Shown piece by piece: positions 7,596 to 64,000 of a DNA stretch of 64,000 nucleotides. Each line of letters opens with the position of its first letter. The first letter of the stretch is position 1. The DNA comes from Tubiluchus corallicola. Its lineage: Eukaryota > Animalia > Priapulida. The translations under genes were made by a program, and so were the position numbers. The notes beneath the pieces were generated by a model. The model was not told the DNA's origin. It did no database searches and worked only from the letters and a program-made list of their open reading frames with translations. The stretch spans positions 1 through 64,000 of the forward strand of contig JAQGDQ010001048.1 of NCBI GenBank assembly GCA_030141605.1, in the 5' to 3' direction.

Positions 7596-7880
7596 TTGGC
7601 ATCCTTCTGTCTCGGAAGACAATGGAGTGTGCGCCAAGAGAGTCAGTTATTGATCGCATTGATGGAGCTGCAGCGTCGACTGTGGCTGAGCAGTCCGGTC
7701 CGTGAACCACTGGAATGGCCGCTCCAGGGCGCATGCCTGGGCAAGGTGTATGGAGATCCTGAGTAGCCCAGACAACAGGAACCCCCTCTCTTCCTTGCTG
7801 GTGTAGTCTAAAGGAAAGCGGAGCGATACGTTTGGCACCAGGTTGGCTGTAGGAGATGCCGGAGTCAGTGAGCATGCTGC
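7596..7880 (-). mobile_element. Retroposon fragment sharing the 3' body and tail of the 5S SINE
   Basis: TTGGCATCCTTCTGTCTCGGAAGACAATGGAGTGTGCGCCAAGAG...GGAGTCAGTGAGCA matches about 63075-63330. No 5S head. Confidence 0.8.
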
Positions 7881-35093: not shown

Positions 35094-35187
35094 TTTTATG
35101 ACAATTTCATTGTCTACACAAGTTAATGACTCTGATGCAAACTTTTCACTAAGATCGAGTGGGTTGGTTACTCTCTAACGTAACATC

Positions 35188-35392
35188 TCATTTTCCCCAT
35201 AAGCTGATGACCTTGCGAATGCATTTGCAATTTTGTCCCCACAAGTTACATTTGCAAGTGTTTCCATAACAGCAGTCATCTACGCTGATGCTGCACCTGT
35301 CCATGCGTCGTTTGCACCTGTATTTTCGCTCTCTAACGTAGTACCGACTGTATTTACGAGGTTTGTAGTAAGAGGGCGTGTAAGATCGTCTC
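35188..35392 (-). CDS. ALP: Agatoxin-like knottin (U8-agatoxin/ALP-type) mature-peptide exon
   Basis: TTTTCTTCTTACAG|G then RRSYTPSYYKPRKYSRYYVRERKYRCKRRMDRCSISVDDCCYGNTCKCNLWGQNCKCIRKVISLWGK*. Framework C-x6-C-x6-CC-x4-C-x-C-x6-C-x-C, the CNLWGxNC motif and a terminal WGK amidation signal are typical of arthropod agatoxin-like peptides. Confidence 0.92.
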
Positions 35393-37106
35393 CTGTAAGA
35401 AGAAAATGAGACATTTTTTAGAAATGAGATGCACTTACGTTGATGTAAGCTTGTAATAAACCTTTTCACAGTTGCAGTGATTGATGATGATCGTGAAGTG
35501 GTCAAAGGTTAAGTGTACCAGACAACGTATTTTTGTACGCTTGACAACGCCTCCCAGCCCATGCCATTGTAATAGTAACAATTTTAACAGCTAGCTAGAA
35601 CCTTTCCTAGCTCATTTTTTCTTGCTGCCAAGTAAGGTCTTGCTAGTAAATCACTCTGCGCACAAACTAATGCATAATTAAGTAAGTAAAACAACTAAAG
35701 CTGATGCATCAGACGGCTTTGTTTTACCCATAAGTCACGTAACATGTTGCTGTTATACACTTAACCTTTGAACTAAAAAAATTGCGCATGCGCACAACGA
35801 AACTGTTTGAGGGGCGTCACATAAAAAATTCTTATTCTCCACGGAAAATGTGTATAACTTAAAAAGTTCCACATAACAAAAAGAGTGCAAACTATTACAC
35901 AACAAACAGTTGCGCAGCCCGCTTGAATATAAGCGCTACGCAAACATACGTAATTAATAATGACAACGTAGAAAATAGGTTAATATTGTTTCTAATACAC
36001 CACAAGTAATTGTCCAAGCTGCTCACTACATAAACAATCAAAAATTTCCAATTTGGGCGGGACTAAACTATCAACCTACTGCATCGTAAAGAGATGCGCC
36101 TCCGATTCTAAACTTCTACCATATCTAGCAGTTGGCAGACGTAGGGCTGTGAGAGAGGAATATAGCAGTTTCTGTATTCTTCCCGTTAAAAAACCTTGTA
36201 TTCACGTGCACTGATAGTTCAGTGAGGTGACATTTTGAAGCGGAAACGTCTCAAATTAGTCGAGTGTTCTGTACAGGAAACATGTCATAATTCTGGGATT
36301 TTGTTTCTTTTTTATTTCTTAGTAGCGAGCAACGACGTGAGTGAACAGGAAAGAGAATTAAAAGCACGAGAGAAAGAGAATGACTCGACGAAGCACAAGT
36401 AAACCCTCCACTTACACAAAGCTTAAAACATCGTCTTGAAATTTTACAACACTTAAGTATTGACTTTTTGCATGCAGGGCTTGCATCGGCAGTAACACTG
36501 TATAAATCTTGTAAATTTATACGGATGACCGTTAGACGCAGCCATTTTGACAATGAGTCATTTGAAACAAGTTTAGATAAAACTGAGTAAAGTTTGAAAA
36601 AAATCAGAGCATTCGTAATGCGTGTTACTAACTAAATAAGGTTTTAATAATTGTATCTTGGCAGTAAGATTAAAAATATTTTTTTGGTTAGTGAGTGGCG
36701 CACCCTGGAAGGTGAGTCAGCGACATTTTACTAATTGGCACGAACATTTTAAATTATTTCTAGTTACATAACTCTTTCTAACAGGTAAGCGAAAAGCTAA
36801 GTAATATAACTGCATGGAAAGTTTTTCGGGACATAATTTAACATTCCTTTCTTCCTTTGATTTACGTTGTGCGTATATGACGTCATGTAATGGCGCCGTC
36901 GGAACAGTATTGCGGGAAACTTAAAATGAAAACAAACAAAAAATCCTTTCAACGCGAGCACGGTATATGCATAAAAAAGCTGTAATGTAGTATAATTTTT
37001 TAAGGCGATTTTTGTGAAACCTACTTCAGGTGCCCCTTTTCTTGTCCTTAATGTTTTTGAATATCAATAAATCAATTTTGAATGTTGATAAATGAATTTT
37101 TAATAT

Positions 37107-37455
37107 TGTTACGGAGGCACCTGTGTCGGGTCAGGTGTAGGGCCCTCTACACGCCCTGCTTCCAGATCAGCAGCGACTCACCCCTTTCTTGTAGGTCCAG
37201 ACGTCTTGTTTGGGCCTACACGTGGTGTGAGAAGCCAGCTGACCTGGAATGCCAGTATAAAAGCGTGTAGAGGTCACTACAACCTTGATTTCTGACACAG
37301 GTGTTCCTCGGGTGTAGTGCTGTTACTGAGTTAGTTAGTTATTTTTTTGTGCACGTGTATTTTGTTCCCTATTTTTATTAGTGCTGTTAATAAACTCCGT
37401 ACAGTGTAGTTTTTGTGTATTTTATTTTATGAGAGTTAAATGACATGCTATAACA
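37107..37455 (+). mobile_element. Solo LTR (Ty3/gypsy-like)
   Basis: TGTTA...TAACA inverted ends, TATAAAA at about 37256, AATAAA at about 37389. TSD not clean. Confidence 0.65.
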
Positions 37456-38254
37456 GGTATATGGTACTAGTTTACAGGCATTAACTTAGTTAATTAGCAT
37501 AACATTTGTAATTAACATTAACATTTGTAATTAAGTATCGGTTACACAACGATAGTAAAATGGATCTTCATGATGCACAATATCAAGACCGCCATGCCAT
37601 CTTGGAGTTCGACCCCCTGAGTCGAATTCAGTCCAATATTAATAAATCAATTTTGACTTATTCATATTTTGACGTTGACTTATTGACAAATGATGATATA
37701 AGAATCATGCATATATTTATATTAATAAATCATTTATCAATATTCAAATTTGGTTATTAATATAATATAAATGATTTATTAGTATTAGAAAAACATAAAA
37801 TTATGTTTTGACGTTCCGTTAAGAAGAATAAAAGAAACTTGAGAAAAACATTAAAGTATAACGAGAAAAAACTCAGGAAAAGTGCAAGAAAAAGCAAAAG
37901 AAAGGGAAAGTAAGAAACGAGAAGGTGGAAAAGATTGTAGAAAGCAAGAAAAAGAGAGGCACAAGCAAAAAAAGGCAAGGGGAAAGAGAAAAAGGAGAAA
38001 AGAAGAAAGAGGAAAGGACGAAAGAGGCAAGAAAAAAAGAAAACAAAGCAAGGAAAGAAAATGATTGCATAAACAAATCAAGAATTTAAGAAAGAAAGAG
38101 TTAATAAACATCAATAAAGAAAAAAGGAAAAGAGCAAAGAAAAAAACAAGGTGGAAAAACTAAAAAAAGAAGAAAGAAAGTAAAAAGTTATGAAAAAGGG
38201 AAGGAGAACAAGAAAAGCAAGAGCAGGAAATGAGTGAACAAGACAAATCAAGTT

Positions 38255-38560
38255 GATAATGACGATGATAATAATGACGATGATGACGATGACGATGGTT
38301 CCGAAGATGATCATGACTATGATGATGATAATGACAAAGACGGTGATGATGGTGATGATGATAATTATGATGACGATGACGATGATGATAATGACAAAGG
38401 TGGTGATGATGACGGTGATGATGGTGATGATGATGATTATGATGACGATGCGATGATGATGATGACGATGATGATGATGATGACGATGACAATGATGATG
38501 ACGATGATGATGATAACGACGACGACGATGATGATGATGATGATGACGATGATGATGATC
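38255..38560. repeat. Degenerate (GAT)n microsatellite after an A/G-rich tract
   Basis: Direct reading. Confidence 0.95.
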
Positions 38561-39408
38561 ATCATAATCAAAAATCTTTATTTTATACATAATAAGAAGA
38601 TGAAAGACATAATGCATAAAGTTTTTTTGATGAAATCTTCATTGTTTTATAGTAGATGGCGCGTCAATCACTGCTTGTCACAAACCTGCAGGTTTACCTA
38701 TTGGTTTTTGCGCTGATTGTTGAAATGCGCTGCAGAGTTTTCACAAAATCTTGCTTCTGCTTTAGCGTTGGAGGCTGCAGAGTAAACACTTTTTCAACAA
38801 AAAAATTGTGACTGTAAATTGTCCGCAAGGGTTTTACGAAATGCGAGTATTAACACACTAGAGAGCTTTCCGAATTTCTGATTTACTCATAAAAACTTTC
38901 TGATGTTCGAATTTACGTGTTTATTATTGCCATAAGGCTGCCGACTTGGCAAAATTCCAAGCGATCCTGCTTATACCTCTGAAAAGTGCGTCTCTGACGT
39001 TAAATTGTAGTAATTTTCTGACTATTTTTCTTCGTCTCTGGCAGATGAGATCTATCACCGACCGTAAGTGAAATGGAAAAAATTTGAGCTAAAGAAAAGA
39101 AGCGAGGAACTATAATATAGCTCCTCGGGTGAAAGGGAAAAGCTAAAATTGTGCAAATGCCGCGACTTTATGCAGTGATTATTGAACTTAGAACCTAATA
39201 TGAATTTTCAGAATTGGCCCCCTAGTGGTAAAAATATGAATTATCTTTTGTGTGCAGTTGATTTTGCTTCACTGCATCGCTACTGGTACGTAAACAAAAA
39301 CTGATTCATGATTTGATTCTATTTTCTATGAAATTGCAACGAAATTATAAAATCTCATTATTGTTGACAGGTAAGTTGGATCATAAATACGATAATAAGC
39401 TTACTTAC

Positions 39409-39435
39409 TCAGATACAGCATACAAATCACTATAC
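39409..39435 (-). CDS. ALP: Agatoxin-like knottin prepropeptide, 27-nt micro-exon (probably alternative)
   Basis: CTGCAAG|G TAT AGT GAT TTG TAT GCT GTA TCT GA|GTAAGT = YSDLYAVS(E). Symmetric phase 2 to 2, perfect donor, weak AAG acceptor. Confidence 0.55.
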
Positions 39436-39449
39436 CTTGCAGGCAACAC

Positions 39450-39455
39450 GATGAT

Positions 39456-39544
<89 letters not shown>

Positions 39545-39734
39545 GGTGATGAAGGTGATAATGATGACGATGATGACAATGACGAAGACAGTGACGATGA
39601 CGACGATGTTGTTGATGACGACGACGACGACGACGACGACTATGATGGTGATGATGATGGTGATGGTGATGGTGATGACGGTGACGATGACAATGACGAA
39701 GACAGTGACGACGATGACGACGACGACTATGATG

Positions 39735-39795
<61 letters not shown>

Positions 39796-39923
39796 CGATG
39801 GCGGTGACGATGACAATGACGATGACAATGATGATGATGAAGCGGATGACGATGACGACGGCGACGATGATGATGATGATGGTGGTGGTGGTGGTGGTGG
39901 TGGTGATGATGATGATGACGATG
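39450..39923. repeat. (GAT/GAC/GGT)n microsatellite
   Basis: Direct reading. Confidence 0.95.
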
Positions 39924-40067
39924 GGGATTATACATTTATATATATATATATATATAACAACATATATATATAGTTGTTATCATGAACCACGTTATCGTCG
40001 CCATCATCATCATGATCACTAATGTTGTCATTAAGAACAAAAAAACGTATAAATCAGTCACACTTAC

Positions 40068-40122
40068 TTTGGCGTATTATGTAAAAAGGCCTGAAGCGCC
40101 GTGTCTTCGTCATAAAGAACAT
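40068..40122 (-). CDS. ALP: Agatoxin-like knottin prepropeptide, propeptide exon
   Basis: TTTTTCTTTTTCAG|AT then VLYDEDTALQAFLHNTP, then AA|GTAAGT. Strong splice sites, phase 1 to 2. Acidic-then-helical propeptide like that of agatoxin-like precursors. Confidence 0.8.
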
Positions 40123-40682
40123 CTGAAAAAGAAAAATTCGTGTCAGAAGCACCTGTTACAAAAATCTGCAGTATAAACTCATTAAGATGCACGAAACAGC
40201 GAGAACAACTGTAGCAGGAGCAGCAACGACAACAATGAACTGCATTTGTGAAAACTTACTGCAAGAAAAACAATAACAAAAAGGCACGCACAATAACAGC
40301 AACAACGACAACTACAGCGCCAAGACAACAAAAATAAAAGCAACTGCGTCAATGACAGCGGCTGGCACAGTAACAGCGACGGCGACAGAAGCAATAACAC
40401 ACAGTCACTTCCGTCACTGACTGCAACACTCAAAAAATCAATAACTCAATAGCACATTGGTTTCAATGACTAACAACTACAAAATCTCAGCTCTTCACAA
40501 AGAAGCCAGTTGAGGAAAGGAGTCAGTTTCAAAATGCAATTTGATTGTCTAGTCGCCAGAGTGACAAAAGACTTGAAAATGAAAACAGTTCAATATCCTG
40601 CAAACTTCAGCTAACATCGCCAAATAAAGACAGAGAATTGTTTTTCTGAATGTTTCTGCGAGCTCTAATCCAATGCTGGCCA

Positions 40683-41138
40683 TCGTCGTCGTCGTTAGCG
40701 CTGTTGCTGTCGTCGTTGTTGTTGTTGCCACTGTTATTGTTGTTGTTGTCATTGGAGGTGGCGGTAGTGGTAGTCCTGGTGGCGGTGGTGGTGGTGTTGG
40801 TGGTGGTGGTGGTGGTGCTACTGCTGCTGCTGTTGCGGTTGAAGTTGTTGTTGTTGTCATCGGCGGCGGCGGTGGCGGTAGTGGTAGTCCTGGTGGTGGT
40901 GGTTGTGGTGTTGGTAGTGGTGGTGATGATGGTGGTGCTGGTGTTGGTGGTGGTGGTGCTACTGCTGCTGCTGTTGCGGTTGAAGTTGTTGTTGTTCTCA
41001 TCGGCGGCGGCGGTGGCAGTAGTGGTAGTCCTGGTGGTGGTGGTTGTGGTGTTGGTAGTGGTGGTGATGATGGTGGTGCTGGTGTTGGTGGTGGTGGTGC
41101 TACTGCTGCTGCTGTTGCGGTTGAAGTTGTTGTTGTTT

Positions 41139-41212
<74 letters not shown>

Positions 41213-41280
41213 TGCTGCTGCTGCTACTTGCTGCTGCTGCTGCTTGCTGCTGTTGTTGTTGTTGTTGTTGTTGCTGTTGC
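40683..41280. repeat. (GGT/GTT/GCT)n low-complexity tract with an internal duplication of about 141 bp
   Basis: Direct reading; about 40860-41000 is repeated at about 41000-41135. Confidence 0.9.
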
Positions 41281-41928
41281 AACTGCTGCTGTTGTCGTCT
41301 GTAAGCGTTGCCTATTGCTGCTGCTGTTGCGGTTGCTGTTGTTGTTGTTGTTGCAATTGCTGCAGGTTTTGTTGTCATCACTGATGCAGTCATTTACTTC
41401 CAGCTGACCCTAGTTCATGAATCAACATGAAATCTAATCCTCAGAAAGGAACTCGTGTTGCTGTTGTTGCTGTTGCTTGCTGCTGTTGTTGTTGTTGTTG
41501 TTGCTGCTGCTGCTGCTGTTGTCGTTTGTAAGCGTTGCTACTGCTGCAGGTTTTGTTGTCATCACTGATGCATTCATGACTCTAGTATACGAATCAACAT
41601 GAAATCTAATCTTCAGAAAGGAACTCATGTTGCTGCTGCTGCTGTTGTTGTTGTTGCTGCTGTTGTCGTTTGTAAGCGTTGCTACTGTTGCAGGTTTTGT
41701 TGTCATCACTGATGCATTCATGACTCTAGTATACGAATCAACATAAAATCTAATCTTCAGAAAGGAACTCATGTTGCTGCTGCTACTGCTGCTGTTGTTG
41801 TTGTTGTTGCTGCTGTTGTCGTTTGTAAGCGTTGCTACTGCTGCAGGTTTTGTTATCATCACTGATGCATTCATGACTCTAGTATACGAATCAACATGAA
41901 ATCTAATCTTCAGAAAGGAACTCATGTT
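41280..41928. repeat. Compound tandem repeat (about 170-185 bp, about 4 units) with embedded (GCT/GTT)n
   Basis: Block GTAAGCGTTGCTACTGCTGCAGGTTTTGTTGTCATCACTGATGCATTCATGACTCTAGTATACGAATCAAC...GAAAGGAACTC is repeated. Confidence 0.88.
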
Positions 41929-41940
41929 GCCATAAATTAC

Positions 41941-41999
41941 TTGTATAAATATGAGGCACCAGTTCATCCCACTCAGAGTAATCGTTAAACAGATAATTC
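41941..41999 (-). CDS. Candidate cassette exon of the agatoxin-like gene (NYLFNDYSEWDELVPHIYT)
   Basis: GTTTCTTACAG|G...A|GTAATT, 59 nt, phase 2 to 1, acidic peptide. Stays in frame only together with the 16-nt candidate at 48872-48887. Mirror copy at 63886-63944 (+). Confidence 0.35.
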
Positions 42000-42295
42000 C
42001 TGTAAGAAACTCTCCACAAAAGATTGAACTTTTCAGTATTGATTCCACGCCAGTTAAACCATTTAGCAACCTGCCCCTCAAAGTCTTCCCAACTCCAGCG
42101 CAAATAAATTCAATCAGAACTTGACAAGTCTCTGATTGATTGTTCTGAAATCCCGCGGGAAAGTTCCCGGTAAGGATGGATCAGTTTCAGTTCTGATGTT
42201 ATTACTCGGTTATTGTTGGTTCAAAGAAATCATTAAACCTGGAATATTTTGAAATTTGATTGAAATGTTCGTTTGTTTTTTTAGTTGCTTGGTAG

Positions 42296-42802
42296 AGACT
42301 ACGGCCAAATCACGTTAAAAACACCGGTTCTCGTCTGATCACCGAAGTTAAGCAACGTAGAGCTTGGTTAGTACTTGGATGGGTGACCGCCCAGGAATAC
42401 CAGGTGCTGTAGGCTTGCGGGATGCCCACACTGTATTTCGACACTAGGCGGAGGAGCTGCACAAGCAGCCAACGGCTAGAGGGCGGAGGAGGTCAAGTGA
42501 CCCAACGGCCATGTGTAGAAGAGGAAACCTTCCAAATCAGGAGTGGAGCCCCGAGTTGCTCACTGACTCCGGCAGCTCCTGCAGCCAACGTATCGCTCCA
42601 CTTTCCTTTGGACTACACCAGGAAGGAAGAGAGGGGGTTCCTGTTGTCTGGGCAACTCAGGATCTCCATACACCTTGCCCAGGTTCAAGGATTGCACTGC
42701 TCAGCCACAGTCGACGCTGCAGCTCCATCACTGTGATCAATAACTTACTCTCTTGGCGCACACTCCATTGTCTTCCGAGACAGAAGGATGCCAACCAACC
42801 AA
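42296..42802 (+). mobile_element. 5S rRNA-derived SINE (SINE3 type) with RTE-LINE-like 3' tail
   Basis: 120-nt 5S head (42297-42416) with no T-run terminator. Body ends ...CATTGTCTTCCGAGACAGAAGGATG(CCAA)3. Tail translates to SRIALLSHSRRC, like the RTE C-terminal motif. Flanks CTTGGTAG (42288-42295) and CTTGGCAG (42803-42810). Confidence 0.85.
42297..42416 (+). rRNA. 5S rRNA-like sequence (SINE head, probably not a functional 5S gene)
   Basis: GACTACGGCCAAATCACGTT...GATCACCGAAGTTAAGC...GTTAGTACTTGGATGGGTGACCGCC...GTGCTGTAGGCTT. Full-length metazoan 5S with internal A and C boxes. Confidence 0.65.
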
Positions 42803-44323
42803 CTTGGCAGTTAAAGGAAAGACCAAGTCGTTTGAAAAGTTGGACTTTTTCAACTTGGTGAAAAATGTTAGAAGGATTTAGTAATAAAAGTGTGATAATT
42901 GCATCTAGTAGTGCAAATAGAAAAATCACTTTAAATTCGCGATCATTTCACGCTTATGCTGTCCCATTTTGAACGCTAATTCTTCCACCAATGACGTCAT
43001 TCACGACTGAACAAAAGCAGAGCTCACTGTCAAATTTCTCCAGAAATAAAACAAGTTTTTACAAAAAATAGATAGCTAATTTTGTGATATTTCGCATGAA
43101 CATTACGTAAGCTACAGAATTTTTCATCTTTACACTTATGAACAGTCAATATGTTCACCAGTAACGTCATAATCTTCAAGTAAATGGCAGCTACCACCAC
43201 GCCTGAAAACGTCTATACAGAGATAGTGTAAATTAACATTATTTTTTTGTAAATTTCATTGTTACATTTTTTAAGTTTAAATGATAACGGTAAATAAACC
43301 CATCATGCTGACTGAAAGACTTGACCTTTCCTTTTAATTTTGTACTTAATTTTTTTTATTCACCGCCATCCAGTGTTTGTGTCCATCACGCAACAGTTAG
43401 ACAGCCTTAACGTAAACGGTGCGGCGGGACCGCAACTTATAAAATTATCACGAGTAAGCCGTGAAAAATGAAAACTAGTTACAATGTTAATAATTCTAAA
43501 TTCTAGATTCTACCAAGCCGATGTGTGATATTTTATGTTTCCATAGCAACCACGCGATAATTTTTTTTAATTCTTCATAAAAAGAACAATATCTGTTTCA
43601 AAAATATTTCATTACATTTCAATTTTGATAAATTCTTATTAGGAAAATGCAACGTTTCAGCTGCAAACTAGCACTCGTCGCCGGGATTTATATAAAGAAT
43701 GATCTAAAATGTTATGTTAAGATTAAACTAAAGCCTTAGCTAAATATATTGCTTATTAATGACATTCTGAGGGTTAAAGACAATCGTTTATTTGGCAAAG
43801 ATTATTGTAATTTTATGTGTAACCCTGATTTCTCTTTAATGAATCATAATGCAAAGACTTGGGCAAAGAAAAGTTAAGCCCCACCCATCATTCCTGTCGA
43901 CGAATCAGGATTAAAATAATTTAATGACGTCGTTGTTGACGTCAGGCGTTTATGCTTCCTGAAATTGTTTACTTTATGCCGATGACGTTGATCTTCTACA
44001 TAAAATCCTGGGTAAAAACGCCATTTTAAACAGCTGCTTAGTCGAAATTGTAGCAAAGTTTGCCAGACTTAATCTGTTTGCAAAGAAACGCCTTTCACTC
44101 GTAATTTCTATTAAAATTTTCATAAGAAGTGCAGACAAACTGGACAGATATCAGAATTACTGTCAACGTCGAAGAAAAAATGGTTGCCATTGGCAACACA
44201 ACATTTAGCAGAGATATTGGTTAGATCAATATACAATCATCTACCGATTTTTCTTTAGCTTCAACGTTTTTTTTTGATACCTATTTTATAGATATTGTAC
44301 TACAGGGCTGTGGTGAAATGAAA

Positions 44324-44880
44324 TGTAATGCTGGCAGGGGAATGCAGTAGACTTCTCAGGTGTGCGTGTGAGCGTGGCTTTATCTAGCACAGACACGTAT
44401 TCTGACCTTGTATTAGTCAAAGCCACTAGTCACGTGCACACCTGAGCTTATAAAAAGGGAAGGTCTGCTGTAGATCCTTGTCAGTGGTCGTGTCTTTCAT
44501 TGCAGCTCTGTTCACATTTCACAGGCTTTGCCGCAAACGCCGTTCTTCTAGGTAAACTGTTTGTTCCTTATTGGGGGTGTGATATGTAGAATAAAATTGT
44601 CATTTCGACTCTATTGTTCGGGTTTGTTTTGGGTTTGGTGTTGAAGGACTTAATTGGGACTTGCCGCACGGTGTGGGCTGCGGTGCCATCCGTCCTGCCT
44701 CCGTTAAAGCGGACAGCAGTCCAATATACATAATTATATTTCTGAAAGATGATGTTAATGTAGTAGCTGCATTGAATGACCAACATGGTGACTGTAGTGA
44801 AGTAATAAAACAGACGCAAAACAACTTTATCCAGAAAAATGGGCGAATTTTCCATTAGCGTTACTGCCACCCCATATAAT
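44324..44880 (+). mobile_element. Possible solo LTR (mirror at about 60975-61530)
   Basis: Starts TGTAA, TATAAAA at 44449, TCAGT at 44481, AATAAA at about 44803, higher GC than flanks. 3' CA end not clear. Confidence 0.4.
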
Positions 44881-45051
44881 GTTTCTGTTTGATCAGTGTG
44901 AGTTGTCATCGAACCATGCAAAAAATCGAAGTTACCGAACCAATAACGATAATTAGAATTTTCAAGATATCGAAGCTGATATATTTCTCTCTCTCACTCT
45001 GTCTCTCACATTCTCTCTCTTTCTCTCACTCTCCCGCCATAACCCCTGTCT

Positions 45052-45234
<183 letters not shown>

Positions 45235-45834
45235 ATTTCTCGTTCTTTCTTTCTCTTCCTCCCTCTCCCCTGTCTCTTCTCTCCCGCTGCACACTGTCTC
45301 GATCTGTTCTCATTTCTTTCCCTTTTTCATTCTTCCTCTATCTTTGTAATTTTAATTAGTAATTTACACTGTGTCTAGAATCACCTTATTTTATTATTTT
45401 ATTAGAAAATTTGTAAAATTTATACTTATGCTGATCTTGTACCTGCAAATAGAGGTCTTATTAATAAAGATTTTAAATAAATAAATAAAATAAAATCCCT
45501 TCTCTCCCTTTTTCTCCTTCTCCCCTGTCGTGTTGTCTCTCTTTCCCTCACCCCATTCCTCACTGTATTCTACACATCGAGCTGCATTTCTAACAACATC
45601 TAAATTCTTTCTCCCTCCACATCTTCAACTCTAATTAAAAGGAAATGACCTCCTCCTGAGAACTAAATGACTCATCACAAGACGCAGGGTGAAGGTTATA
45701 ACTCTTAACTACAACTAATCTAGCTCAGGAAATTAAAAGGTTAATGAAAGTTGATCTTTTGTTTTACATAGCTTCCAAACCACTTACGAACCTCCTGCAG
45801 TAGCTCAGATCAATATCAAAGTCGCCTGTCAAGG

Positions 45835-46400
45835 CCCTATTTTGAGACACAGTTCAGTTTGGAGTCTCATATTGTCCCACAGTTGCCATAGTAATAACAC
45901 GCGTAGGATGCATGAATAAGGGTGATGGTATTAACAATGTAGGACCGAAGAAAGATCCTTGCAGCATCCCGTAATCCCTATTTTGAGACACCGTTCAGTT
46001 TGGAGTCTCATATTGTCCCACAGTTGCTATAGTAATAACACGCGTAGGATGCATGAATAACGGTGATGGTATTAACAATGTAGGACCAAAGAAAGATCCT
46101 TGCAGCATCCCGTAAACCCTATTTTGAGACACAGTTCAGTTTGGAGTCTCATATTGTCCCACAGTTGCCATAGTAATAACACGCGTAGGATGCATGAATA
46201 AGGGTGATGGTATTAACAATGTAGGACCGAAGAAAGATCCTTGCAGCATCCCGTAATCCCTATTTTGAGACACCGTTCAGTTTGGAGTCTCATATTGTCC
46301 CACAGTTGCTATAGTAATAACACGCGTAGGATGCATGAATAACGGTGATGGTATTAACAATGTAGGACCAAAGATAGATCCTTGCAGCATCCCGTAATCC
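45835..46400. repeat. 141-bp tandem repeat x4, derived from a reverse transcriptase fragment (x3 in the mirror arm, about 59664-60087)
   Basis: Units start CCCTATTTTGAGACAC at about 45835, 45976, 46117, 46258. Minus strand reads DYGMLQGSIFGPTLL, like the LINE RT GVPQGS-LGP motif. Confidence 0.88.
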
Positions 46401-47409
46401 ACATGCAGTTTTATCAATAGTAACTTTCTTTTGATCATTTTCCCTACAAGGTGCTGCTTCATCCACACTGGATAATTAACGACTGCGCAAGAATACTAAT
46501 AGAAGTGCGGAACTATCACTGATGCTTATATAATTAATAATTTGTGCAATTTGCAACGAGCACTGCAGTATGGAGGGTGCGTTTGTAATGTTTATTAAAC
46601 AACCCACAGAGAGAAAAAGTCTTGAAATTACGTTGCCCATTTACCACCTCTCTGGAACTTCAAAAAATTCACCCCCTTTTCAATTAAGTTGATCAATACA
46701 GTACCTCCTTTGAACAAAATTAGAAAAAAATACTTTAATGGCTTTAATGTCTTCCTGTTTTAGGACTCCTGGAACCAACAATCGGTCATTTCTGTAATTA
46801 GCAGTCCATCAAATTTACAGGAGTGTGTTTATAGGAACACCAGGAGCCTGGGTATTGAACCCGGTATACTTCTCTCTTAAAAGGAACTGAAAGAGCTATA
46901 AAACTGCGCGTTTCTACTTTATATGTCTAGTTTAAGTTTTGCAGTATTCTGACAAAAATACTACCCCCAGACCGGTTTTTTGCATTTTACCTTTTACCAT
47001 ACGCATCCCAGTAAACCTTTTATATGACTTTTCTAAATATGTTTTGTGCACAAAATACTTATTTATTTATTTATTTATTTTAGGCGCATTGTCTCACCAC
47101 GAAATAAAAGTAAAAATGCAATATGTCGATTTTTTAACATAGTCGAAACTTCGCTTGTCTATACATTATACATTATACATTATACATTATACATTATACA
47201 TTATTAATGTCTGTACATTAATTACTCCATCTAAAAGAAAAAGTAGTAGACAATAAATTCAAAATAACAATGACAATAACAATGGTGGTCAGCATAACCA
47301 CAAATTATGCTGTTGCTGTTTACTAATGAAACACGTTTAACAAAAGTGATTTACGAATTATGGTGGGGGTAATATTTTACCCCCCCCCCCCGGTTACCAA
47401 ATATGCACT

Positions 47410-47970
47410 TTAACATATTGAAATTAAACATGCCATTTATTCAAAAATGACTTCCATGAAAGAATTATTACCACACAAACATAATTTCACGTTCGCGCCA
47501 CTAGTTCTTCACTGTTACATGTTTCGCCATTCGTTAGTTAGACGGGCACTAGCGCGTGCATTTCGGAAACAAATTGCACAAAATTGCACCTCTCAGTTCA
47601 GATATGTTAGTTTGTGACGAACTACATACATTCGACAGCTCATGCGTGAACACAGCAGTAAATTTGAAATTTGAATTTTTATCTTAAAACTTGCCTAGTT
47701 TTAGTACAGCACTGAATACCTTACAGTAACACTGTACTTCAATTCTCGCTTCCACAAACACGTGCAACATGCTCGTGGAATATTTTTGATGTTGAAAATT
47801 ATGTTAGTTTGTGACGTTATCAATAGTTGGGCTCGCCGCCGTTAATAAATTTTTAAACCATTATTTAATTATGAGAAACACATTTGCAGTATTATTTGAG
47901 TTAAAGGTATACTTTTTATCGAACTTGAAAATGAATTAGTATACGAAAAATCATCCTGCCTCCCTTTAAA
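47410..47970. mobile_element. Dispersed DNA-transposon-derived repeat family C (Kolobok-like end); other pieces at about 1790-2130, 19240-19620, 31485-31760, 32940-33110, 58090-58650
   Basis: Shared terminus TTAAAGGRAGRCAGGATGATTTTT and internal GCGCCACTAGTTCTTCACTGTTACATG. Confidence 0.6.
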
Positions 47971-49237
47971 GGATAAGAAACGCTCTTTATTAACAATATT
48001 TATTAATAATTAATAATAATATTATTAACGTCCTGATATTTAATATCATTTGTTAAACGTAAAGTCATCTGTAAATGGTACTATTCAAGCAGGAATCCAA
48101 CACACAGGACTCACTTAATGAACATAGACGTGGCAAGACCGAAACCCAACTCAGTTGTCACGGAACTCGGCGTTGCCTAATTTTTGACAGCAAACACACA
48201 TCGTGACACTTTACCAAACGATTTTCCACATTTATGGCTCAGAACTGTTCAGTAAATCAGGAAAAGTCCTGGAAATCTGCACAAGACACGCAAGAACTTC
48301 TACACTGTAGTTCGTATTCGAGTCATGATCTTCTACTTCAATAAAATTAAGTGGAACTATTTATACCAATCTCATCTGGTATTAGTCACTCAGTGTGACT
48401 TTCTAAATTAAGAAATCAGCTACTCAGTGAATTAGTTAGTTGAGTTATGTCATCACAACAGTGTTAGCGCCAATGCATTTGCATGGCTTCATTGCATTAG
48501 CTACAATTCTTGCACATGGCTTCAATGGTTTCAGCAAAAAAAAACAACATATTTGATTAACGAGAAATTTCTGTATAAACGAACATATGAAGTACTAAAT
48601 TCAACACAAGAGCACAAACTGTAACTAAATCTTCAATCAATCGATGAATCGGTCAGTTACTTAGTCAGTGAGTCAGCTAGTCAGTCAAACAGTTAGTCAG
48701 TCAGTCAGTTATTCAGTCATTTAGTTTTGAATGTGAGATAAAAAAGCTAAATTTAAAAATTCAAATAAAGTCATTTAACTGGTTAGTTAGTTAATCAGTC
48801 CGTCCGTCCATTAATCAATTGGTGCAAAAACTGTAAGCCAAAACTGTAACTGTATTTGAAACAATGTTTACTGGGGCCCTTCATTACCTGTTTTGTAACA
48901 TCAGAGAAGAAGAAAATTGGCAGATTTCACAATTTGGCTATAACGCATGCGCAGTTACTGTAGGTGAAAGGTTAAGTGTAACACAGCAAAGTGTCTTAAA
49001 CTACAATCGTCACGTGACATGTGGGTAAATAATGATGATGATAAATCCTTTATTACGCCTCTATTGCAGGCTCAATACCGATGGGTATTGGTGTGGGTAA
49101 AGCAAAGCCGCCTGCTGCACCGGTTCAGTAACTTCTGTCGTTTTAAATAGTCTTTAAGCATTATGCATTAGTTGTAGAGTGATTTACAAGTAGGATCTTG
49201 CCTGGGAACAAGAAAAAATGAACTAGGTAAGATTTAC

Positions 49238-49334
49238 CTGACAAATCTTCATCATTGTCAAGTGTGTAAGAAAAGGTATCTCCTAGTAGAACCACCAGCA
49301 TCACTGTGAAGACTGCAACCTGCCCAGGAGACAT
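49238..49334 (-). CDS. ALP: Agatoxin-like knottin prepropeptide, signal-peptide exon (copy 1)
   Basis: Acceptor TTTTTTCCAG|, 8 nt of UTR, then MSPGQVAVFTVMLVVLLGDTFSYTLDNDEDLS (hydrophobic signal plus acidic propeptide start). Donor CAG|GTAAAT, phase 1, matches the exon at 40122. Confidence 0.82.
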
Positions 49335-49832
49335 CGTGGACACTGGAAAAAAGTAGATAAGATGCTAATTAAATTGTTGGTGCTCGACGCTGTGCTTGGC
49401 CGACCTAAAATGTTTCTCCAAGCAACAGTACAGCAGTTTTAGACTAGTTAAGGCTGTAATTATCACTGTCGGCTGTTATTGCTGTCGCTGCTGCTACTAG
49501 TGATGATGATGATGTTGCTTCTGCTGCTATCATTACTGTTATAGTAATTATTATTGTTGTTGTTGTTGTTGTTGTTGTCGCTGCTGCTACTAATGGTGTT
49601 GATGGTGATGACGAAGACGGCGACGACGAGAATAAAGGCACAGCACTTTGACCGCAATTACGGTGTCAGAAATCAGTAAAAGTCAGAAAAAAGTAAAAAA
49701 TCAAGCCTGTATGCGAACCTACAACCCACGAGACAGAGATGAACAAACAATTGTTCATGTACATTTTTATGTTATTTACGTGCTTTTTTACTTTTTAGTA
49801 TTTCTTTATCTGACGTTTGTCCTAAATAATAT

Positions 49833-50635
49833 AATGTAATGTAATGTAATGTAGTGTAACGTAATGTAATTTAATGTAATGTAATGTACTGTAGTGTAAT
49901 GTAATGTAATGTAATGTAAAATAACACATTGTAAATCCACTATAAATAAATAAAGTTTAAACTAACTAAAATAATCTAGCATAACGTAACGTAAAATAAC
50001 ATAGCATAACATAAAGTAAAATAACATAACATAACATAACATAACATAACATAACATAACATAACATAACATAACATAACATAACATAACATAACATAAC
50101 ATAACATAACATAACATAACATAACATAACATAACATAACATAACATAACATAACATAACATAACATAACATAACATAACATAACATAACATAACATAAC
50201 ATAACATAACATAACATAACATAACATAACATAACATAACATAACTTAACATCATAACGTAACTTAACATGACATACGTAACGTGACATAAAATAACGTA
50301 ACATAACGTAAAATAACATAACATGACATCACATAACATAACGTAAAATAACATAACATGACATGACATGACATGACATAACATGACATGACATGACATA
50401 ACATAACTTGACATCATAACGTAGTATAACGTAACTTAACATAACATAACGTAACGTAACATAACATGACACAACACAACATAACATAACATAACATAAC
50501 ATAACATAACATAACATAACATAACATAACATAACATAACATAACATAACATAACGTAACTTAACATAACGTAACTTAACGTAAAATAACATAACATAAC
50601 ATAACGTAACGTAACATAACATAATAATGTAATAA
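49833..50635. repeat. (TAATG)n and (CATAA)n pentanucleotide arrays (mirror at about 55729-56235)
   Basis: Direct reading; marks the inner end of the inverted arms. Confidence 0.96.

Positions 50636-55669: not shown

Positions 55670-55729
<60 letters not shown>
54585..55729. repeat. Compound repeat: constant roughly 85-bp block alternating with variable (GTT/GCT/GAT)n tracts, 6 units
   Basis: Block TTTCTACACATTTGCATATTTAAATTTTCTTCAC..GGCGATCGAG recurs at about 54592, 54746, 54921, 55122, 55432, 55582. Confidence 0.9.
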
Positions 55730-55730
<1 letters not shown>

Positions 55731-56733
55731 ATGTTATGTTATGTTATGTTATGTTATGTTATGTTGTGTTGTGTTATGTTGTACTGTGCTGTGCTGTGCT
55801 GTGCTATGCTATGCTATGCTATGTTACGTTATGTTATTTTATGTTATGTTATGTTACGTTATGTTATGTTATGTTATGTTATGTTACGTTATGTTATGTT
55901 ATGTTATGTTATGTTATGTTATGTTATGTTATGTTATGTTATGTTATGTTATGTTATGTTATGTTATGTTATGTTATGTTATGTTATGTTATGTTATGTT
56001 ATGTTATGTTATGTTATGTTATGTTATGTTATGTTATGTTATGTTATTTTACTTTATGTTATGCTATGTTATTTTACGTTACGTTATGCTAGATTATTTT
56101 AGTTAGTTTAAACTTTATTTATTTATAGTGGATTTACAATGTGTTATTTTACATTACATTACATTACATTACACTACAGTACATTACATTACATTAAATT
56201 ACATTACGTTACACTACATTACATTACATTACATTATATTATTTAGGACAAACGTCAGATAAAGAAATACTAAAAAGTAAAAAAGCACGTAAATAACATA
56301 AAAATGTACATGAACAATTGTTTGTTCATCTCTGTCTCGTGGGTTGTAGGTTCGCATACAGGCTTGATTTTTTACTTTTTTCTGACTTTTACTGATTTCT
56401 GACACCGTAATAGCGGTCAAAGTGCTGTGCCTTTATTCTCGTCGTCGCCGTCTTCGTCATCACCATCAACACCATTAGTAGCAGCAGCGACAACAACAAC
56501 AACAACAACAACAATAATAATTACTATAACAGTAATGATAGCAGCAGAAGCAACATCATCATCATCACTAGTAGCAGCAGCGACAGCAATAACAGCCGAC
56601 AGTGATAATTACAGCCTTAACTAGTCTAAAACTGCTGTACTGTTGCTTGGAGAAACATTTTAGGTCGGCCAAGCACAGCGTCGAGCACCAACAATTTAAT
56701 TAGCATCTTATCTACTTTTTTCCAGTGTCCACG

Positions 56734-56830
56734 ATGTCTCCTGGGCAGGTTGCAGTCTTCACAGTGATGCTGGTGGTTCTACTAGGAGATACCTTTTCTT
56801 ACACACTTGACAATGATGAAGATTTGTCAG
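56734..56830 (+). CDS. ALP: Agatoxin-like knottin signal-peptide exon (copy 2, in the inverted arm; remainder expected beyond the window)
   Basis: Exact reverse-complement copy of 49238-49334 with intact acceptor (56724-56725) and donor (56831). Confidence 0.7.
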
Positions 56831-59800
56831 GTAAATCTTACCTAGTTCATTTTTTCTTGTTCCCAGGCAAGATCCTACTTGTAAATCACTCTACAACTAA
56901 TGCATAATGCTTAAAGACTATTTAAAACGACAGAAGTTACTGAACCGGTGCAGCAGGCGGCTTTGCTTTACCCACACCAATACCCATCGGTATTGAGCCT
57001 GCAATAGAGGCGTAATAAAGGATTTATCATCATCATTATTTACCCACATGTCACGTGACGATTGTAGTTTAAGACACTTTGCTGTGTTACACTTAACCTT
57101 TCACCTACAGTAACTGCGCATGCGTTATAGCCAAATTGTGAAATCTGCCAATTTTCTTCTTCTCTGATGTTACAAAACAGGTAATGAAGGGCCCCAGTAA
57201 ACATTGTTTCAAATACAGTTACAGTTTTGGCTTACAGTTTTTGCACCAATTGATTAATGGACGGACGGACTGATTAACTAACTAACCAGTTAAATGACTT
57301 TATTTGAATTTTTAAATTTAGCTTTTTTATCTCACATTCAAAACTAAATGACTGAATAACTGACTGACTGACTAACTGTTTGACTGACTAGCTGACTCAC
57401 TGACTAAGTAACTGACCGATTCATCGATTGATTGAAGATTTAGTTACAGTTTGTGCTCTTGTGTTGAATTTAGTACTTCATATGTTCGTTTATACTGAAA
57501 TTTCTCGTTAATCAAATATGTTTTTTTGCTGAAACCTTTGAAGCCATGTGCAAGAATTGTAGCTAATGCAATGAAGCCATGCAAATGCATTGGCGCTAAC
57601 ACTGTTGTGATGACATAACTCAACTAACTAATTCACTGAGTAGCTGATTTCTTAATTTAGAAAGTCACACTGAGTGACTAATACCAGATGAGATTGGTAT
57701 AAATAGTTCCACTTAATTTTATTGAAGTAGAAGATCATGACTCGAATACGAACTACAGTGTAGAAGTTCTTGCGTGTCTTGTGCAGATTTCTGGGACTTT
57801 TCCTGATTTACTGAACAGTTCTGAGCCATAAATGTGGAAAATCGTTTGGTAAAGTGTCACGATGTGTGTTTACTGACAAAAATTAGGCAACGCCGAGTTC
57901 CGTGACAACTGAGTTGGGTTTCGGTCTTGCCACGTCTATGTTCATTAAGTGAGTCCTGTGTGTTGGATTCCTGCTTGAATAGTACCATTTACAGATGACT
58001 TTACGTTTAACAAATGATATTAAATATCAGGACGTTAATAATATTATTATTAATTATTAATAAATATTGTTAATAAAGAGCGTTTCTTATCCTTTAAAGG
58101 GAGGCAGGATGATTTTTCGTATACTAATTCATTTTCAAGTTCGATAAAAAGTATACCTTTAACTCAAATAATACTGCAAATGTGTTTCTCATAATTAAAT
58201 AATAGTTTAAAAATTTATTAACGGCGGCGAGCCCAACTATTGATAACGTCACAAACTAACATAATTTTCAACATCAAAAATATTCCACGAGCATGTTGCA
58301 CGTGTTTGTGGAAGCGAGAATTGAAGTACAGTGTTACTGTAAGGTATTCAGTGCTGTACTAAAACTAGGCAAGTTTTAAGATAAAAATTCAAATTTCAAA
58401 TTTACTGCTGTGTTCACGCATGAGCTGTCGAATGTATGTAGTTCGTCACAAACTAACATATCTGAACTGAGAGGTGCAATTTTGTGCAATTTGTTTCCGA
58501 AATGCACGCGCTAGTGCCCGTCTAACTAACGAATGGCGAAACATGTAACAGTGAAGAACTAGTGGCGCGAACGTGAAATTATGTTTGTGTGGTAATAATT
58601 CTTTCATGGAAGTCATTTTTGAATAAATGGCATGTTTAATTTCAATATGTTAAAGTGCATATTTGGTAACCGGGGGGGGGGGGTAAAATATTACCCCCAC
58701 CATAATTCGTAAATCACTTTTGTTAAACGTGTTTCATTAGTAAACAGCAACAGCATAATTTGTGGTTATGCTGACCACCATTGTTATTGTCATTGTTATT
58801 TTGAATTTATTGTCTACTACTTTTTCTTTTAGATGGAGTAATTAATGTACAGACATTAATAATGTATAATGTATAATGTATAATGTATAATGTATAATGT
58901 ATAGACAAGCGAAGTTTCGACTATGTTAAAAAATCGACATATTGCATTTTTACTTTTATTTCGTGGTGAGACAATGCGCCTAAAATAAATAAATAAATAA
59001 ATAAGTATTTTGTGCACAAAACATATTTAGAAAAGTCATATAAAAGGTTTACTGGGATGCGTATGGTAAAAGGTAAAATGCAAAAAACCGGTCTGGGGGT
59101 AGTATTTTTGTCAGAATACTGCAAAACTTAAACTAGACATATAAAGTAGAAACGCGCAGTTTTATAGCTCTTTCGGTTCCTTTTAAGAGAGAAGTATACC
59201 GGGTTCAATACCCAGGCTCCTGGTGTTCCTATAAACACACTCCTGTAAATTTGATGGACTGCTAATTACAGAAATGACCGATTGTTGGTTCCAGGAGTCC
59301 TAAAACAGGAAGACATTAAAGCCATTAAAGTATTTTTTTCTAATTTTGTTCAAAGGAGGTACTGTATTGATCAACTTAATTGAAAAGGGGGTGAATTTTT
59401 TGAAGTTCCAGAGAGGTGGTAAATGGGCAACGTAATTTCAAGACTTTTTCTCTCTGTGGGTTGTTTAATAAACATTACAAACGCACTCTCCATACTGCAG
59501 TGCTCGTTGCAAATTGCACAAATTATTAATTATATAAGCATCAGTGATAGTTCCGCACTTCTATTAGTATTCTTGCCCACTCGTTAATTATCCAGTGTGG
59601 ATGAAGCAGCACCTTGTAGGGAAAATGATCAAAAGAAAGTTACTATTGATAAAACTGCATGTGGATTACGGGATGCTGCAAGGATCTATCTTTGGTCCTA
59701 CATTGTTAATACCATCACCGTTATTCATGCATCCTACGCGTGTTATTACTATAGCAACTGTGGGACAATATGAGACTCCAAACTGAACGGTGTCTCAAAA

Positions 59801-60687
59801 TAGGGATTACGGGATGCTGCAAGGATCTATCTTTGGTCCTACATTGTTAATACCATCACCGTTATTCATGCATCCTACGCGTGTTATTACTATAGCAACT
59901 GTGGGACAATATGAGACTCCAAACTGAACGGTGTCTCAAAATAGGGATTACGGGATGCTGCAAGGATCTTTCTTCGGTCCTACATTGTTAATACCATCAC
60001 CCTTATTCATGCATCCTACGCGTGTTATTACTATGGCAACTGTGGGACAATATGAGACTCCAAACTGAACTGTGTCTCAAAATAGGGCCTTGACAGGCGA
60101 CTTTGATATTGATCTGAGCTACTGCAGGAGGTTCGTAAGTGGTTTGGAAGCTATGTAAAACAAAAGATCAACTTTCATTAACCTTTTAATTTCCTGAGCT
60201 AGATTAGTTGTAGTTAAGAGTTATAACCTTCACCCTGCGTCTTGTGATGAGTCATTTAGTTCTCAGGAGGAGGTCATTTCCTTTTAATTAGAGTTGAAGA
60301 TGTGGAGGGAGAAAGAATTTAGATGTTGTTAGAAATGCAGCTCGATGTGTAGAATACAGTGAGGAATGGGGTGAGGGAAAGAGAGACAACACGACAGGGG
60401 AGAAGGAGAAAAAGGGAGAGAAGGGATTTTATTTTATTTATTTATTTAAAATCTTTATTAATAAGACCTCTATTTGCAGGTACAAGATCAGCATAAGTAT
60501 AAATTTTACAAATTTTCTAATAAAATAATAAAATAAGGTGATTCTAGACACAGTGTAAATTACTAATTAAAATTACAAAGATAGAGGAAGAATGAAAAAG
60601 GGAAAGAAATGAGAACAGATCGAGACAGTGTGCAGCGGGAGAGAAGAGACAGGGGAGAGGGAGGAAGAGAAAGAAAGAACGAGAAAT

Positions 60688-60725
<38 letters not shown>

Positions 60726-60746
60726 CTAGGGAGAGAGAGAGGGCCC

Positions 60747-60805
<59 letters not shown>

Positions 60806-63065: not shown

Positions 63066-63589
63066 TTGGTTGGTTGGCATCCTTCTGTCTCGGAAGACAA
63101 TGGAGTGTGCGCCAAGAGAGTAAGTTATTGATCACAGTGATGGAGCTGCAGCGTCGACTGTGGCTGAGCAGTGCGATCCTTGAACGTCTCCAGGGCGCAC
63201 GCCTGGGCAAGGTGTATGGAGATCCTGAGTTGCCCAGACAACAGGAACCCCCTCTCTTCCTTCCTGGTGTAGTCCAAAGGAAAGTGGAGCGATACGTTGG
63301 CTGCAGGAGCTGCCAGAGTCAGTGAGCAACTCGGGGCTCGACTCCTGATTTGGAAGGTTTCCTCTTCTACACATGGCCGTTGGGTCACTTGACCTCCTCC
63401 GCCCTCTAGCCGTTGGCTGCTTGTGCAGCTCCTCCGCCTAGTGTCGAAATACAGTGTGGGCATCCCGCAAGCCTACAGCACCTGGTATTCCTGGGCGGTC
63501 ACCCATCCAAGTACTAACCAAGCTCTACGTTGCTTAACTTCGGTGATCAGACGAGAACCGGTGTTTTTAACGTGATTTGGCCGTAGTCT
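63066..63589 (-). mobile_element. 5S rRNA-derived SINE (mirror copy)
   Basis: Reverse complement of 42296-42802, 17 nt longer. Perfect 8-bp TSD CTACCAAG at 63058-63065 and 63590-63597. Confidence 0.85.
63469..63588 (-). rRNA. 5S rRNA-like sequence (SINE head, mirror copy)
   Basis: Reverse complement of 42297-42416. Confidence 0.65.
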
Positions 63590-64000
63590 CTACCAAGCAA
63601 CTAAAAAAACAAACGAACATTTCAATCAAATTTCAAAATATTCCAGGTTTAATGATTTCTTTGAACCAACAATAACCGAGTAATAACATCAGAACTGAAA
63701 CTGATCCATCCTTACCGGGAACTTTCCCGCGGGATTTCAGAACAATCAATCAGAGACTTGTCAAGTTCTGATTGAATTTATTTGCGCTGGAGTTGGGAAG
63801 ACTTTCAGGGGCAGGTTGCTAAATGGTTTAACTGACGTGGAATCAATACTGAAAAGTTCAATCTTTTGTGGAGAGTTTCTTACAGGAATTATCTGTTTAA
63901 CGATTACTCTGAGTGGGATGAACTGGTGCCTCATATTTATCCAAGTAATTTATGGCAACACGAGTTCGTTTCTGAGGATTAGATTTCATGTTGATTCGTA

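What the first reader, a model, noticed from the sequence alone, without database searches (positions are those of the whole stretch)
35188..49334. Complete, divergent agatoxin-like knottin precursor hidden in four small exons over 14 kb
Seen: phase-consistent GT-AG splicing gives MSPGQVAVFTVMLVVLLGDTFSYTLDNDEDLSDVLYDEDTALQAFLHNTPKYSDLYAVSERRSYTPSYYKPRKYSRYYVRERKYRCKRRMDRCSISVDDCCYGNTCKCNLWGQNCKCIRKVISLWGK (127 aa). Known: arthropod neuroendocrine agatoxin-like peptides share this cysteine spacing, CNLWGxNC and a C-terminal WG(K), and are usually strongly conserved in the loops and in a QRMGLFQKW-type tail; the scaffold also occurs in spider and remipede venoms. Inference: the altered loops (MDR, SISVDD, GNT) and tail (IRKVISLW) suggest a fast-evolving paralogue, possibly a venom or defence peptide.
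Basis: partly seen in the sequence, partly recalled or inferred. Interest (0 to 1): 0.75.

Follow-up and report, generated by a model that had tools for sequence, protein, structure and literature searches.

The report
Priapulid agatoxin-like neuropeptide gene
This is an ordinary gene for a small cysteine-rich secreted peptide of the agatoxin-like/CCWamide family, likely from a priapulid worm; it is no more different from the insect versions than its relatives in Priapulus are, and it likely works as a neuropeptide rather than a venom.

Summary
The gene is real: minus-strand exons at 49334-49238, 40122-40068 and 35392-35188 have good splice sites and join in frame. The venom reading rests on comparing with arthropods, but the host is likely not an arthropod: the neighbouring FEZ/UNC-76 gene groups with Priapulus caudatus (100/99), outside Arthropoda. 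The cysteine domain is 48% identical to arthropod agatoxin-like peptides (ALPs), the same as two Priapulus ALP-type proteins (45%, 49%) and a tardigrade one (49%). The gene meets the published definition of the ALP/CCWamide family: signal exon, phase-1 intron, phase-2 intron splitting a basic cleavage site, eight cysteines, Trp-Gly-Lys end. Best reading: a neuropeptide with an unknown receptor. Orthology to either Priapulus gene is unresolved (63% and 51%), so 'paralogue' stays open. No genome or RNA could be checked. New member of a known family; low interest.

The parts
49238..49334 (-). Coding exon 1: predicted signal peptide (about residues 1-22) and start of the acidic propeptide; ends in phase 1
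   Evidence: Kyte-Doolittle 11-mer maximum 3.13; cleavage site inferred from the -3/-1 rule, no signal-peptide predictor run
40068..40122 (-). Coding exon 2: acidic propeptide with the D-x-AL-x-x-F/Y-L motif of priapulid and mollusc homologues; ends in phase 2 inside a Lys codon if joined to exon 4
   Evidence: (p 0.007 against Priapulus P0156, 0.018 against Dreissena, 3 of 9 comparisons under 0.05, uncorrected)
39409..39435 (-). Possible 27-nt cassette exon (phase 2-2); alternative in-frame TAG acceptor would give 21 nt (39429-39409). Unproven
   Evidence: not above chance; precedent in nemertean CCWamide isoforms
35188..35392 (-). Last coding exon: RR site, Tyr/Arg/Lys-rich extension, eight-cysteine domain, Trp-Gly-Lys, TGA
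35323..35385 (-). 21-residue Tyr- and basic-rich extension with two further RK sites; holds a short internal repeat
   Evidence: Tyr-rich extensions also stand in nemertean and mollusc CCWamides
35197..35322 (-). Predicted mature peptide, 42 residues, cysteine spacing 6,6,0,4,1,6,1, predicted Trp-amide
   Evidence: boundaries inferred from dibasic sites
56734..56830 (+). Identical second copy of coding exon 1, head-to-head with the first
41885..50338 (.). Left arm of an inverted duplication holding exon 1 and most of intron 1
55727..64000 (.). Right arm of the inverted duplication; runs off the window about 1.8 kb before a mirror copy of exon 2 would begin

Best explanation
This is an intact gene of the protostome agatoxin-like peptide (ALP)/CCWamide family, likely from a priapulid worm, and it likely encodes an endogenous neuropeptide rather than a toxin. 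Shown by sequence: signal-type exon, acidic propeptide, the family's two intron positions, eight cysteines and a Trp-Gly-Lys end. Inferred: the precursor enters the secretory pathway of neurosecretory cells, folds into a four-disulfide knottin, is cut by prohormone convertases at the (K)RR site and at one or both RK sites, loses its last Lys and is amidated at Trp, giving a basic 42-residue peptide plus short Tyr-rich fragments. The main transcript is likely the three-exon form (E1-E2-E4); E3 is at most a cassette. The peptide would act on an unidentified receptor; I put a GPCR at about 55%, direct ion-channel modulation at about 30% (my estimate; no receptor is known for the family).
For: Host: FEZ/UNC-76 8.4 kb downstream pairs with Priapulus at 100/99 in two trees, and 19 arthropod-side rows form a branch without it at 98/94 and 96/89. 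Family: 55 hits at E<=0.001 among 1.84 billion proteins, all ALP-type by eye; of 23 looked up, 12 bear an organism name: 10 arthropods, 1 tardigrade, 1 Priapulus. The 12-residue core around Cys5-Cys8 is identical in Priapulus P0156 and the nemertean Tubulanus. Divergence from 12 arthropod ALPs: window 48%, Priapulus 45% and 49%, tardigrade 49%. Gene structure equals that of Tribolium, Centruroides, Crassostrea, Notospermus and Phoronis genes: phase 1, then phase 2 in a basic codon (PMC8557429 section 9 and supplement part 214; window). Optional phase-2-2 exons at that intron and Tyr-rich extensions exist in nemertean CCWamides; 2 to 4 splice forms in decapods (PMC4888303 passages); beetle ALPs confirmed by mass spectrometry in a neuropeptidome study (PMC9552230 passages).
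Against: No expression or peptide evidence for this gene. Orthology is unresolved: the 43-column peptide tree puts the window row with tardigrade and spiralian rows (82/81), not with the two Priapulus rows, though a priapulid clade is not rejected (p-AU 0.34). Window-Priapulus peptide identity (63%, 51%) is low for a pair with 79% FEZ identity; 15 arthropod pairs keep 58-86% at 53-86% FEZ, so priapulid members are looser or paralogous. The arthropod set was picked by likeness to the window peptide, which favours its 48%. The 23 residues before Cys1 are longer and richer in Tyr (7) than in 13 homologues with a clear first site (1-16 residues). The FEZ tree lacks kinorhynchs, loriciferans, nematodes, tardigrades and onychophorans.
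Confidence: 0.85

Rival explanations
1. Fast-evolving paralogue recruited as a venom or prey-subduing toxin.
For: The family has been recruited into spider and remipede venoms (PMC8557429 section 9; PMC11288129 passages). Best structural matches are spider toxins. Priapulus has two paralogues and the window may hold a fresh duplicate.
Against: Not more divergent than Priapulus or tardigrade members. Keeps the neuropeptide gene structure and amidation signal. Among the solved structures returned no neuropeptide ALP is listed, so toxin matches are expected for any member. A search for priapulid + venom + toxin listed 9 papers, none about a priapulid venom by title or start of abstract. Only one cysteine frame in 64 kb, no array.
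Confidence: 0.05
2. Secreted host-defence (antimicrobial) knottin, using its basic, Tyr-rich extension on microbial surfaces, in the way of horseshoe crab tachystatins.
For: Last-exon product has net charge +15 with 7 Tyr in the extension; tachystatin B and A appear among fold matches (Z 3.8 and 2.5).
Against: The cysteine domain's charge (+6) equals that of ALP/CCWamides (+5 to +8). The extension is cut up by dibasic sites and has counterparts in nemertean CCWamides. The Z values are weak and tied with many knottins.
Confidence: 0.06
3. A silent or truncated copy: this locus was cut off from its promoter by the inverted duplication, or the exons are not joined as modelled.
For: An acceptor-like pyrimidine tract + CAG stands 8 nt before the ATG, hinting at an upstream non-coding exon, yet no consensus donor outside repeats was found on the minus strand in the 6.4 kb up to the far arm.
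Against: All frames are open, E1, E2 and E4 splice sites are good and phases match the family.
Confidence: 0.04

Closest known systems
Priapulus caudatus XP_014678767 ('omega-agatoxin-Aa4b-like', P0194) and XP_014664846 ('U8-agatoxin-Ao1a-like', P0156); automatic RefSeq names
   Same: Eight-cysteine domain (62-63% and 50-51% identical), same divergence from arthropod ALPs, similar propeptide; P0194 has a tail of the same length ending WGK; P0156 has the identical core around Cys5-Cys8 and the same spacing.
   Different: Loops differ; the window has 23 residues between the first dibasic site and Cys1 against 1 and 5. Which one is the orthologue, if either, is open.
Arthropod agatoxin-like peptides (ALP; Sturm et al. 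2016, seen only as cited in PMC8557429 and others)
   Same: Cysteine spacing 6,6,0,4,1,6,1, CNLWGxNC motif, Trp-amide signal, intron phases, optional small exons.
   Different: 48% identity only; lacks the GLFQxW tail and has CKC...QNCKC where most arthropods have CRC...[ST]NCRC.
Spiralian CCWamides (molluscs, nemerteans, phoronids; Thiel et al. 2021, PMC8557429)
   Same: Core motif, Tyr-rich extension before Cys1, LWG ending, intron phases; 54% mean identity to 5 members, slightly above that to arthropods.
   Different: Second loop is 6 residues, not 10; tail is 3 to 4 residues longer.
Venom knottins: Tbo-IT2 (7ay8), omega-agatoxin IVA/IVB, purotoxin-1, remipede xibalbin 1/13
   Same: Eight-cysteine knottin scaffold; weak sequence matches (E 0.008-0.15) and fold matches (Z 4.5-5.0).
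   Different: These come from venom glands of arthropods; nothing here ties the window peptide to a gland, and it is far closer to neuropeptide-type members.

Membership tests
ALP/CCWamide (definition of PMC8557429, section 9) | Signal peptide encoded in the first coding exon | tested here: met
   Hydrophobic N-terminus in E1, KD maximum 3.13; no dedicated predictor run
ALP/CCWamide | [quoted passage not shown] | tested here: met
   Acidic E1/E2 stretch, then RR at the start of E4
ALP/CCWamide | Eight conserved Cys with an aromatic residue between Cys6 and Cys7 | tested here: met
   Spacing 6,6,0,4,1,6,1 with Trp; 7 of 8 Cys invariant and the eighth at least 90% in 46 rows
ALP/CCWamide | C-terminal aromatic residue followed by an amidation signal | tested here: met
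   Trp-Gly-Lys-stop; amidation itself is predicted
ALP/CCWamide | Phase-1 intron after the signal exon; phase-2 intron in a basic codon before the last exon; mature peptide wholly in the last exon | tested here: met
   Met for E1-E2-E4 (Lys codon split); with E3 the phase stays 2 but the split codon is Glu
ALP/CCWamide | Expression in neurons or neuroendocrine tissue; peptide seen by mass spectrometry | not testable with these tools
   No reads or proteomes could be laid on the gene
Arthropod-type ALP (narrow sense) | QRxGLFQxW-type tail and about 75% mutual identity | tested here: not met
   Tail differs; 48%. Also not met by the Priapulus and tardigrade members
Pfam Toxin_9 (PF02819) | Score above the gathering cut-off | tested here: met
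   31.3 and 28.9 bits against 21.3; the family also covers non-venom members such as P0194-P0196, P0198
Inhibitor cystine knot fold | Knotted disulfides with a C-terminal beta-hairpin | tested here: inconclusive
   AlphaFold2 model pLDDT 79, hairpin at 22-25/34-37; top matches are knottins but weak (Foldseek E>=0.44, VIA Z<=5.0); disulfide pairing was not read from the model
Venom knottins (U8-agatoxin, xibalbins) | Made in a venom gland, present in venom | not testable with these tools
   No expression data; no paper on priapulid venom among the 9 listed
Venom knottins | Accelerated divergence relative to the physiological copy | tested here: not met
   Same distance to arthropod outgroups as both Priapulus members and the tardigrade; dN/dS not testable
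Venom knottins | Expanded gene family beside a conserved physiological copy | tested here: inconclusive
   One cysteine frame in the window, a duplicate of exon 1, no genome held, two genes in Priapulus

The most novel reading that the evidence does not exclude
Priapulids hold a small, loosely conserved family of ALP/CCWamide genes, and this member, freshly duplicated head-to-head and carrying a long Tyr/Arg-rich extension, has been recruited as a secreted prey-subduing or defence knottin: the first peptide toxin of the phylum.
Probability: 0.05. Interest if true: 0.65.

Novelty: new member of a known kind. Interest (0 to 1): 0.2.

Why it matters
Little on its own: the family is described across protostomes, two Priapulus members are already in RefSeq, and a 2024 preprint shows an agatoxin alignment among peptides found in Priapulida and Rotifera. 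The modest value is comparative: this peptide joins arthropod cysteine spacing to a spiralian-type core and Tyr-rich extension, and shows the family's intron pattern in a likely priapulid, which helps to reconstruct the ancestral protostome ligand. The family's receptor is still unknown (PMC8557429, PMC13311285), and this gene does not make that question easier to test than insect or mollusc members do.

Tried and rejected
No whole genome is held, so the search for a canonical copy elsewhere could not be done. No RNA holder listed for 34900-35450, so no reads were laid. The word-based search with the last-exon product found no candidate among 36-118 residue proteins; 'longer' was not run for it; the profile search (9-184 residues) gave 8 of 69 candidates, none near-identical. 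The Atlas does not hold the window peptide; Priapulus P0194 there hits Toxin_9/ALP clusters first (0.91), which speaks for the homologue only. Foldseek gave no match at E<=0.001. The peptide tree is too short to settle orthology. Exon 3 as a required exon: rejected. Long Tyr-rich extension as a unique invention: rejected, nemertean CCWamides have one. A second or alternative last exon inside the window: none. Inverted arms as a same-molecule read chimera: unlikely, since they differ by 61 substitutions outside repeats (35 transitions, 26 transversions) and by repeat copy number; allele versus paralogue cannot be told. Christie et al. 2020 (PMC7747469) is not held. Paper searches: Priapulus + agatoxin 1 paper; CCWamide 8; agatoxin-like + tardigrade + neuropeptide 1; agouti-like + agatoxin + invertebrate 0. 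Earlier findings: none near this place or like this sequence.
Full report
Observation. The four stretches lie on the minus strand as described. Exact limits, splice sites and phases are: E1 49334-49238, E2 40122-40068, E3 39435-39409, E4 35392-35188; introns of 9115, 632 and 4016 nt; 127 residues in all. E4 passes the Pfam Toxin_9 cut-off and is the only frame in the window that a profile of homologues finds (E 5e-16). Among 15 candidate phase-1-to-2 exons between E1 and E4, the two that share E2's donor score far above the other 13. E3 is weak: AAG acceptor behind a CAT repeat, symmetric phase, and 2 to 3 similar candidates in the same intron against 0.6 to 2.2 expected. Without it the precursor has 118 residues.

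Host. A FEZ/UNC-76 gene lies 8.4 kb downstream on the same strand, with five pieces found between 26804 and 7329. Its best hit among 381 is Priapulus caudatus. In trees of the window's pieces with 35 of the 120 listed homologues it pairs with Priapulus at 100/99, both with all pieces and with the N-terminal part alone, and stays outside the branch that holds the arthropods. Kinorhynchs, loriciferans, nematodes, tardigrades and onychophorans were not sampled, so the claim is 'priapulid or near kin', and not P. caudatus itself (76-79% identity). Unreviewed notes on other pieces of this genome point the same way; they are not independent support.

Relatives. The full-library search gave 55 proteins, all of ALP type by eye. 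Of 23 looked up, 12 bear an organism name: 10 arthropods, the tardigrade Ramazzottius and Priapulus XP_014664846. A profile search added Priapulus XP_014678767 and mollusc and nemertean CCWamides (8 of 69 candidates). Over the cysteine domain, mean identity to 12 arthropod ALPs is 48% for the window, 45% and 49% for the Priapulus proteins and 49% for the tardigrade, while arthropods keep 75% among themselves. The arthropod set was chosen by likeness to the window peptide, which can raise its figure a little. The window is 54% identical to 5 spiralian members, and nearest to XP_014678767 (62%).

Against a plain reading. With FEZ at 79% between the window and Priapulus, the peptides share only 63% and 51%; 15 arthropod pairs share 58-86% at FEZ 53-86%. 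The peptide tree does not group the three priapulid rows, nor reject such a group (p-AU 0.34). Priapulid members are therefore either less constrained or paralogous. That leaves 'paralogue' open but gives no sign that this gene runs faster than its kin.

Family definition. Thiel et al. 2021 (PMC8557429; passages, section 9 in full, supplement parts 10 and 214 seen) unite spiralian CCWamides and arthropod ALPs by precursor layout and by a three-exon gene with a phase-1 intron after the signal exon and a phase-2 intron inside a basic codon of the cleavage site. E1-E2-E4 reproduces this, with the Lys codon split before RR. Their Notospermus and Cerebratulus isoforms carry an optional 8-residue phase-2-2 exon at the same intron, a precedent for E3, and Lineus and Cerebratulus CCWamides carry Tyr-rich extensions before Cys1. 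They state that no receptor is known and that venom use is a secondary recruitment; PMC13311285 (passages) says the same. Decapod ALP genes give 2 to 4 splice forms (PMC4888303, passages); beetle ALPs were confirmed by mass spectrometry (PMC9552230, passages); ALP numbers are expanded in barnacles and copepods (PMC13760995, passages). A preprint (10.1101/2024.07.20.604414; passages and section 12) shows an agatoxin alignment among peptides found in Priapulida and Rotifera and does not list it among the rotifer firsts; that it came from Priapulus is my inference, since figure, table and supplements were not visible. Remipede xibalbins 1 and 13 inhibit potassium and sodium channels in oocytes (PMC11288129, passages), which keeps channel modulation plausible for the scaffold. 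Sturm et al. 2016 and Christie et al. 2020 were not seen.

Fold. The model of the last 45 residues has pLDDT 79 and a C-terminal hairpin. Matches are knottins from spiders, a sea anemone, horseshoe crab and human AgRP, all weak. This fits a knottin and says nothing on function.

Mechanism. Shown: the coding layout and processing signals. Inferred from general neuropeptide processing (own knowledge): secretion, four disulfides, cleavage at (K)RR and RK sites, removal of the last Lys and amidation of Trp, giving a 42-residue peptide of net charge +6, like other members (+5 to +8). The internal KRR between Cys1 and Cys2 is also present in the tardigrade protein, and RR at that place in most arthropod ones, so it is likely not cut. 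The target is unknown.

Inverted duplication. Exon 1 and 135 nt around it recur exactly at 56734 on the plus strand. The arms 41885-50338 and 55727-64000 align over 7859 columns with 75 substitutions, 61 outside tandem repeats: 12 in the inner 4.6 kb and 49 in the outer 3.4 kb. They flank 5.4 kb of mostly satellites, and the right arm starts where a TGT run passes into a TGTTA satellite. The differences look biological, but two haplotypes joined at a repeat and a young head-to-head duplicate fit equally. Whether the second copy is complete lies beyond the window.

Verdict. A real, intact gene; a new member of a known neuropeptide family, likely priapulid; the venom reading is not supported. 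Interest 0.2.

Noticed in passing
window 41885-50338 and 55727-64000: Inverted duplication of at least 8 kb (96-98.6% in blastn blocks) with a step in divergence near 45300 (about 0.3% inside, 1.4% outside); real duplicate or two haplotypes.
   Followed up: partly
window 26804-7329, minus strand: FEZ/UNC-76 gene, at least five coding pieces (26804-26463, 25563-25453, 23044-22922, about 9424-9212, 7406-7329); used to place the host.
   Followed up: yes
window 42297-42415 (+) and 63470-63588 (-): Full-length 5S rRNA match (102.6 bits) inside intron 1 and in its mirror; a neighbouring stretch (42557-42795) recurs at 7595-7874.
   Followed up: no
window 49343-49360, minus strand: Pyrimidine tract + CAG 8 nt before the ATG suggests an upstream non-coding exon; not located. 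A donor-like AG/GTGAG sits on the plus strand at 50667 in the unique spacer.
   Followed up: partly
window 36416-36463 and 37182-37238, minus strand: Two further open phase-2-2 cassette candidates in the E2-E4 intron, as good on paper as E3.
   Followed up: no
window 51049-53529, 4538-6584, 14848-15403, 45835-46400: Tandem arrays of 80 nt x 31, 24 nt x 84, 56 nt x 10 and 141 nt x 4 (x 3 in the mirror arm).
   Followed up: no
proteins P0123 and P0124 (unnamed Logan records): ALP precursors with two eight-cysteine domains in one chain, one divergent and one canonical.
   Followed up: no
PMC8557429 supplement part 10: Lineus and Cerebratulus transcripts share the first exons but end in two different CCWamide domains, suggesting alternative last exons; nothing like it within this window.
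   Followed up: partly
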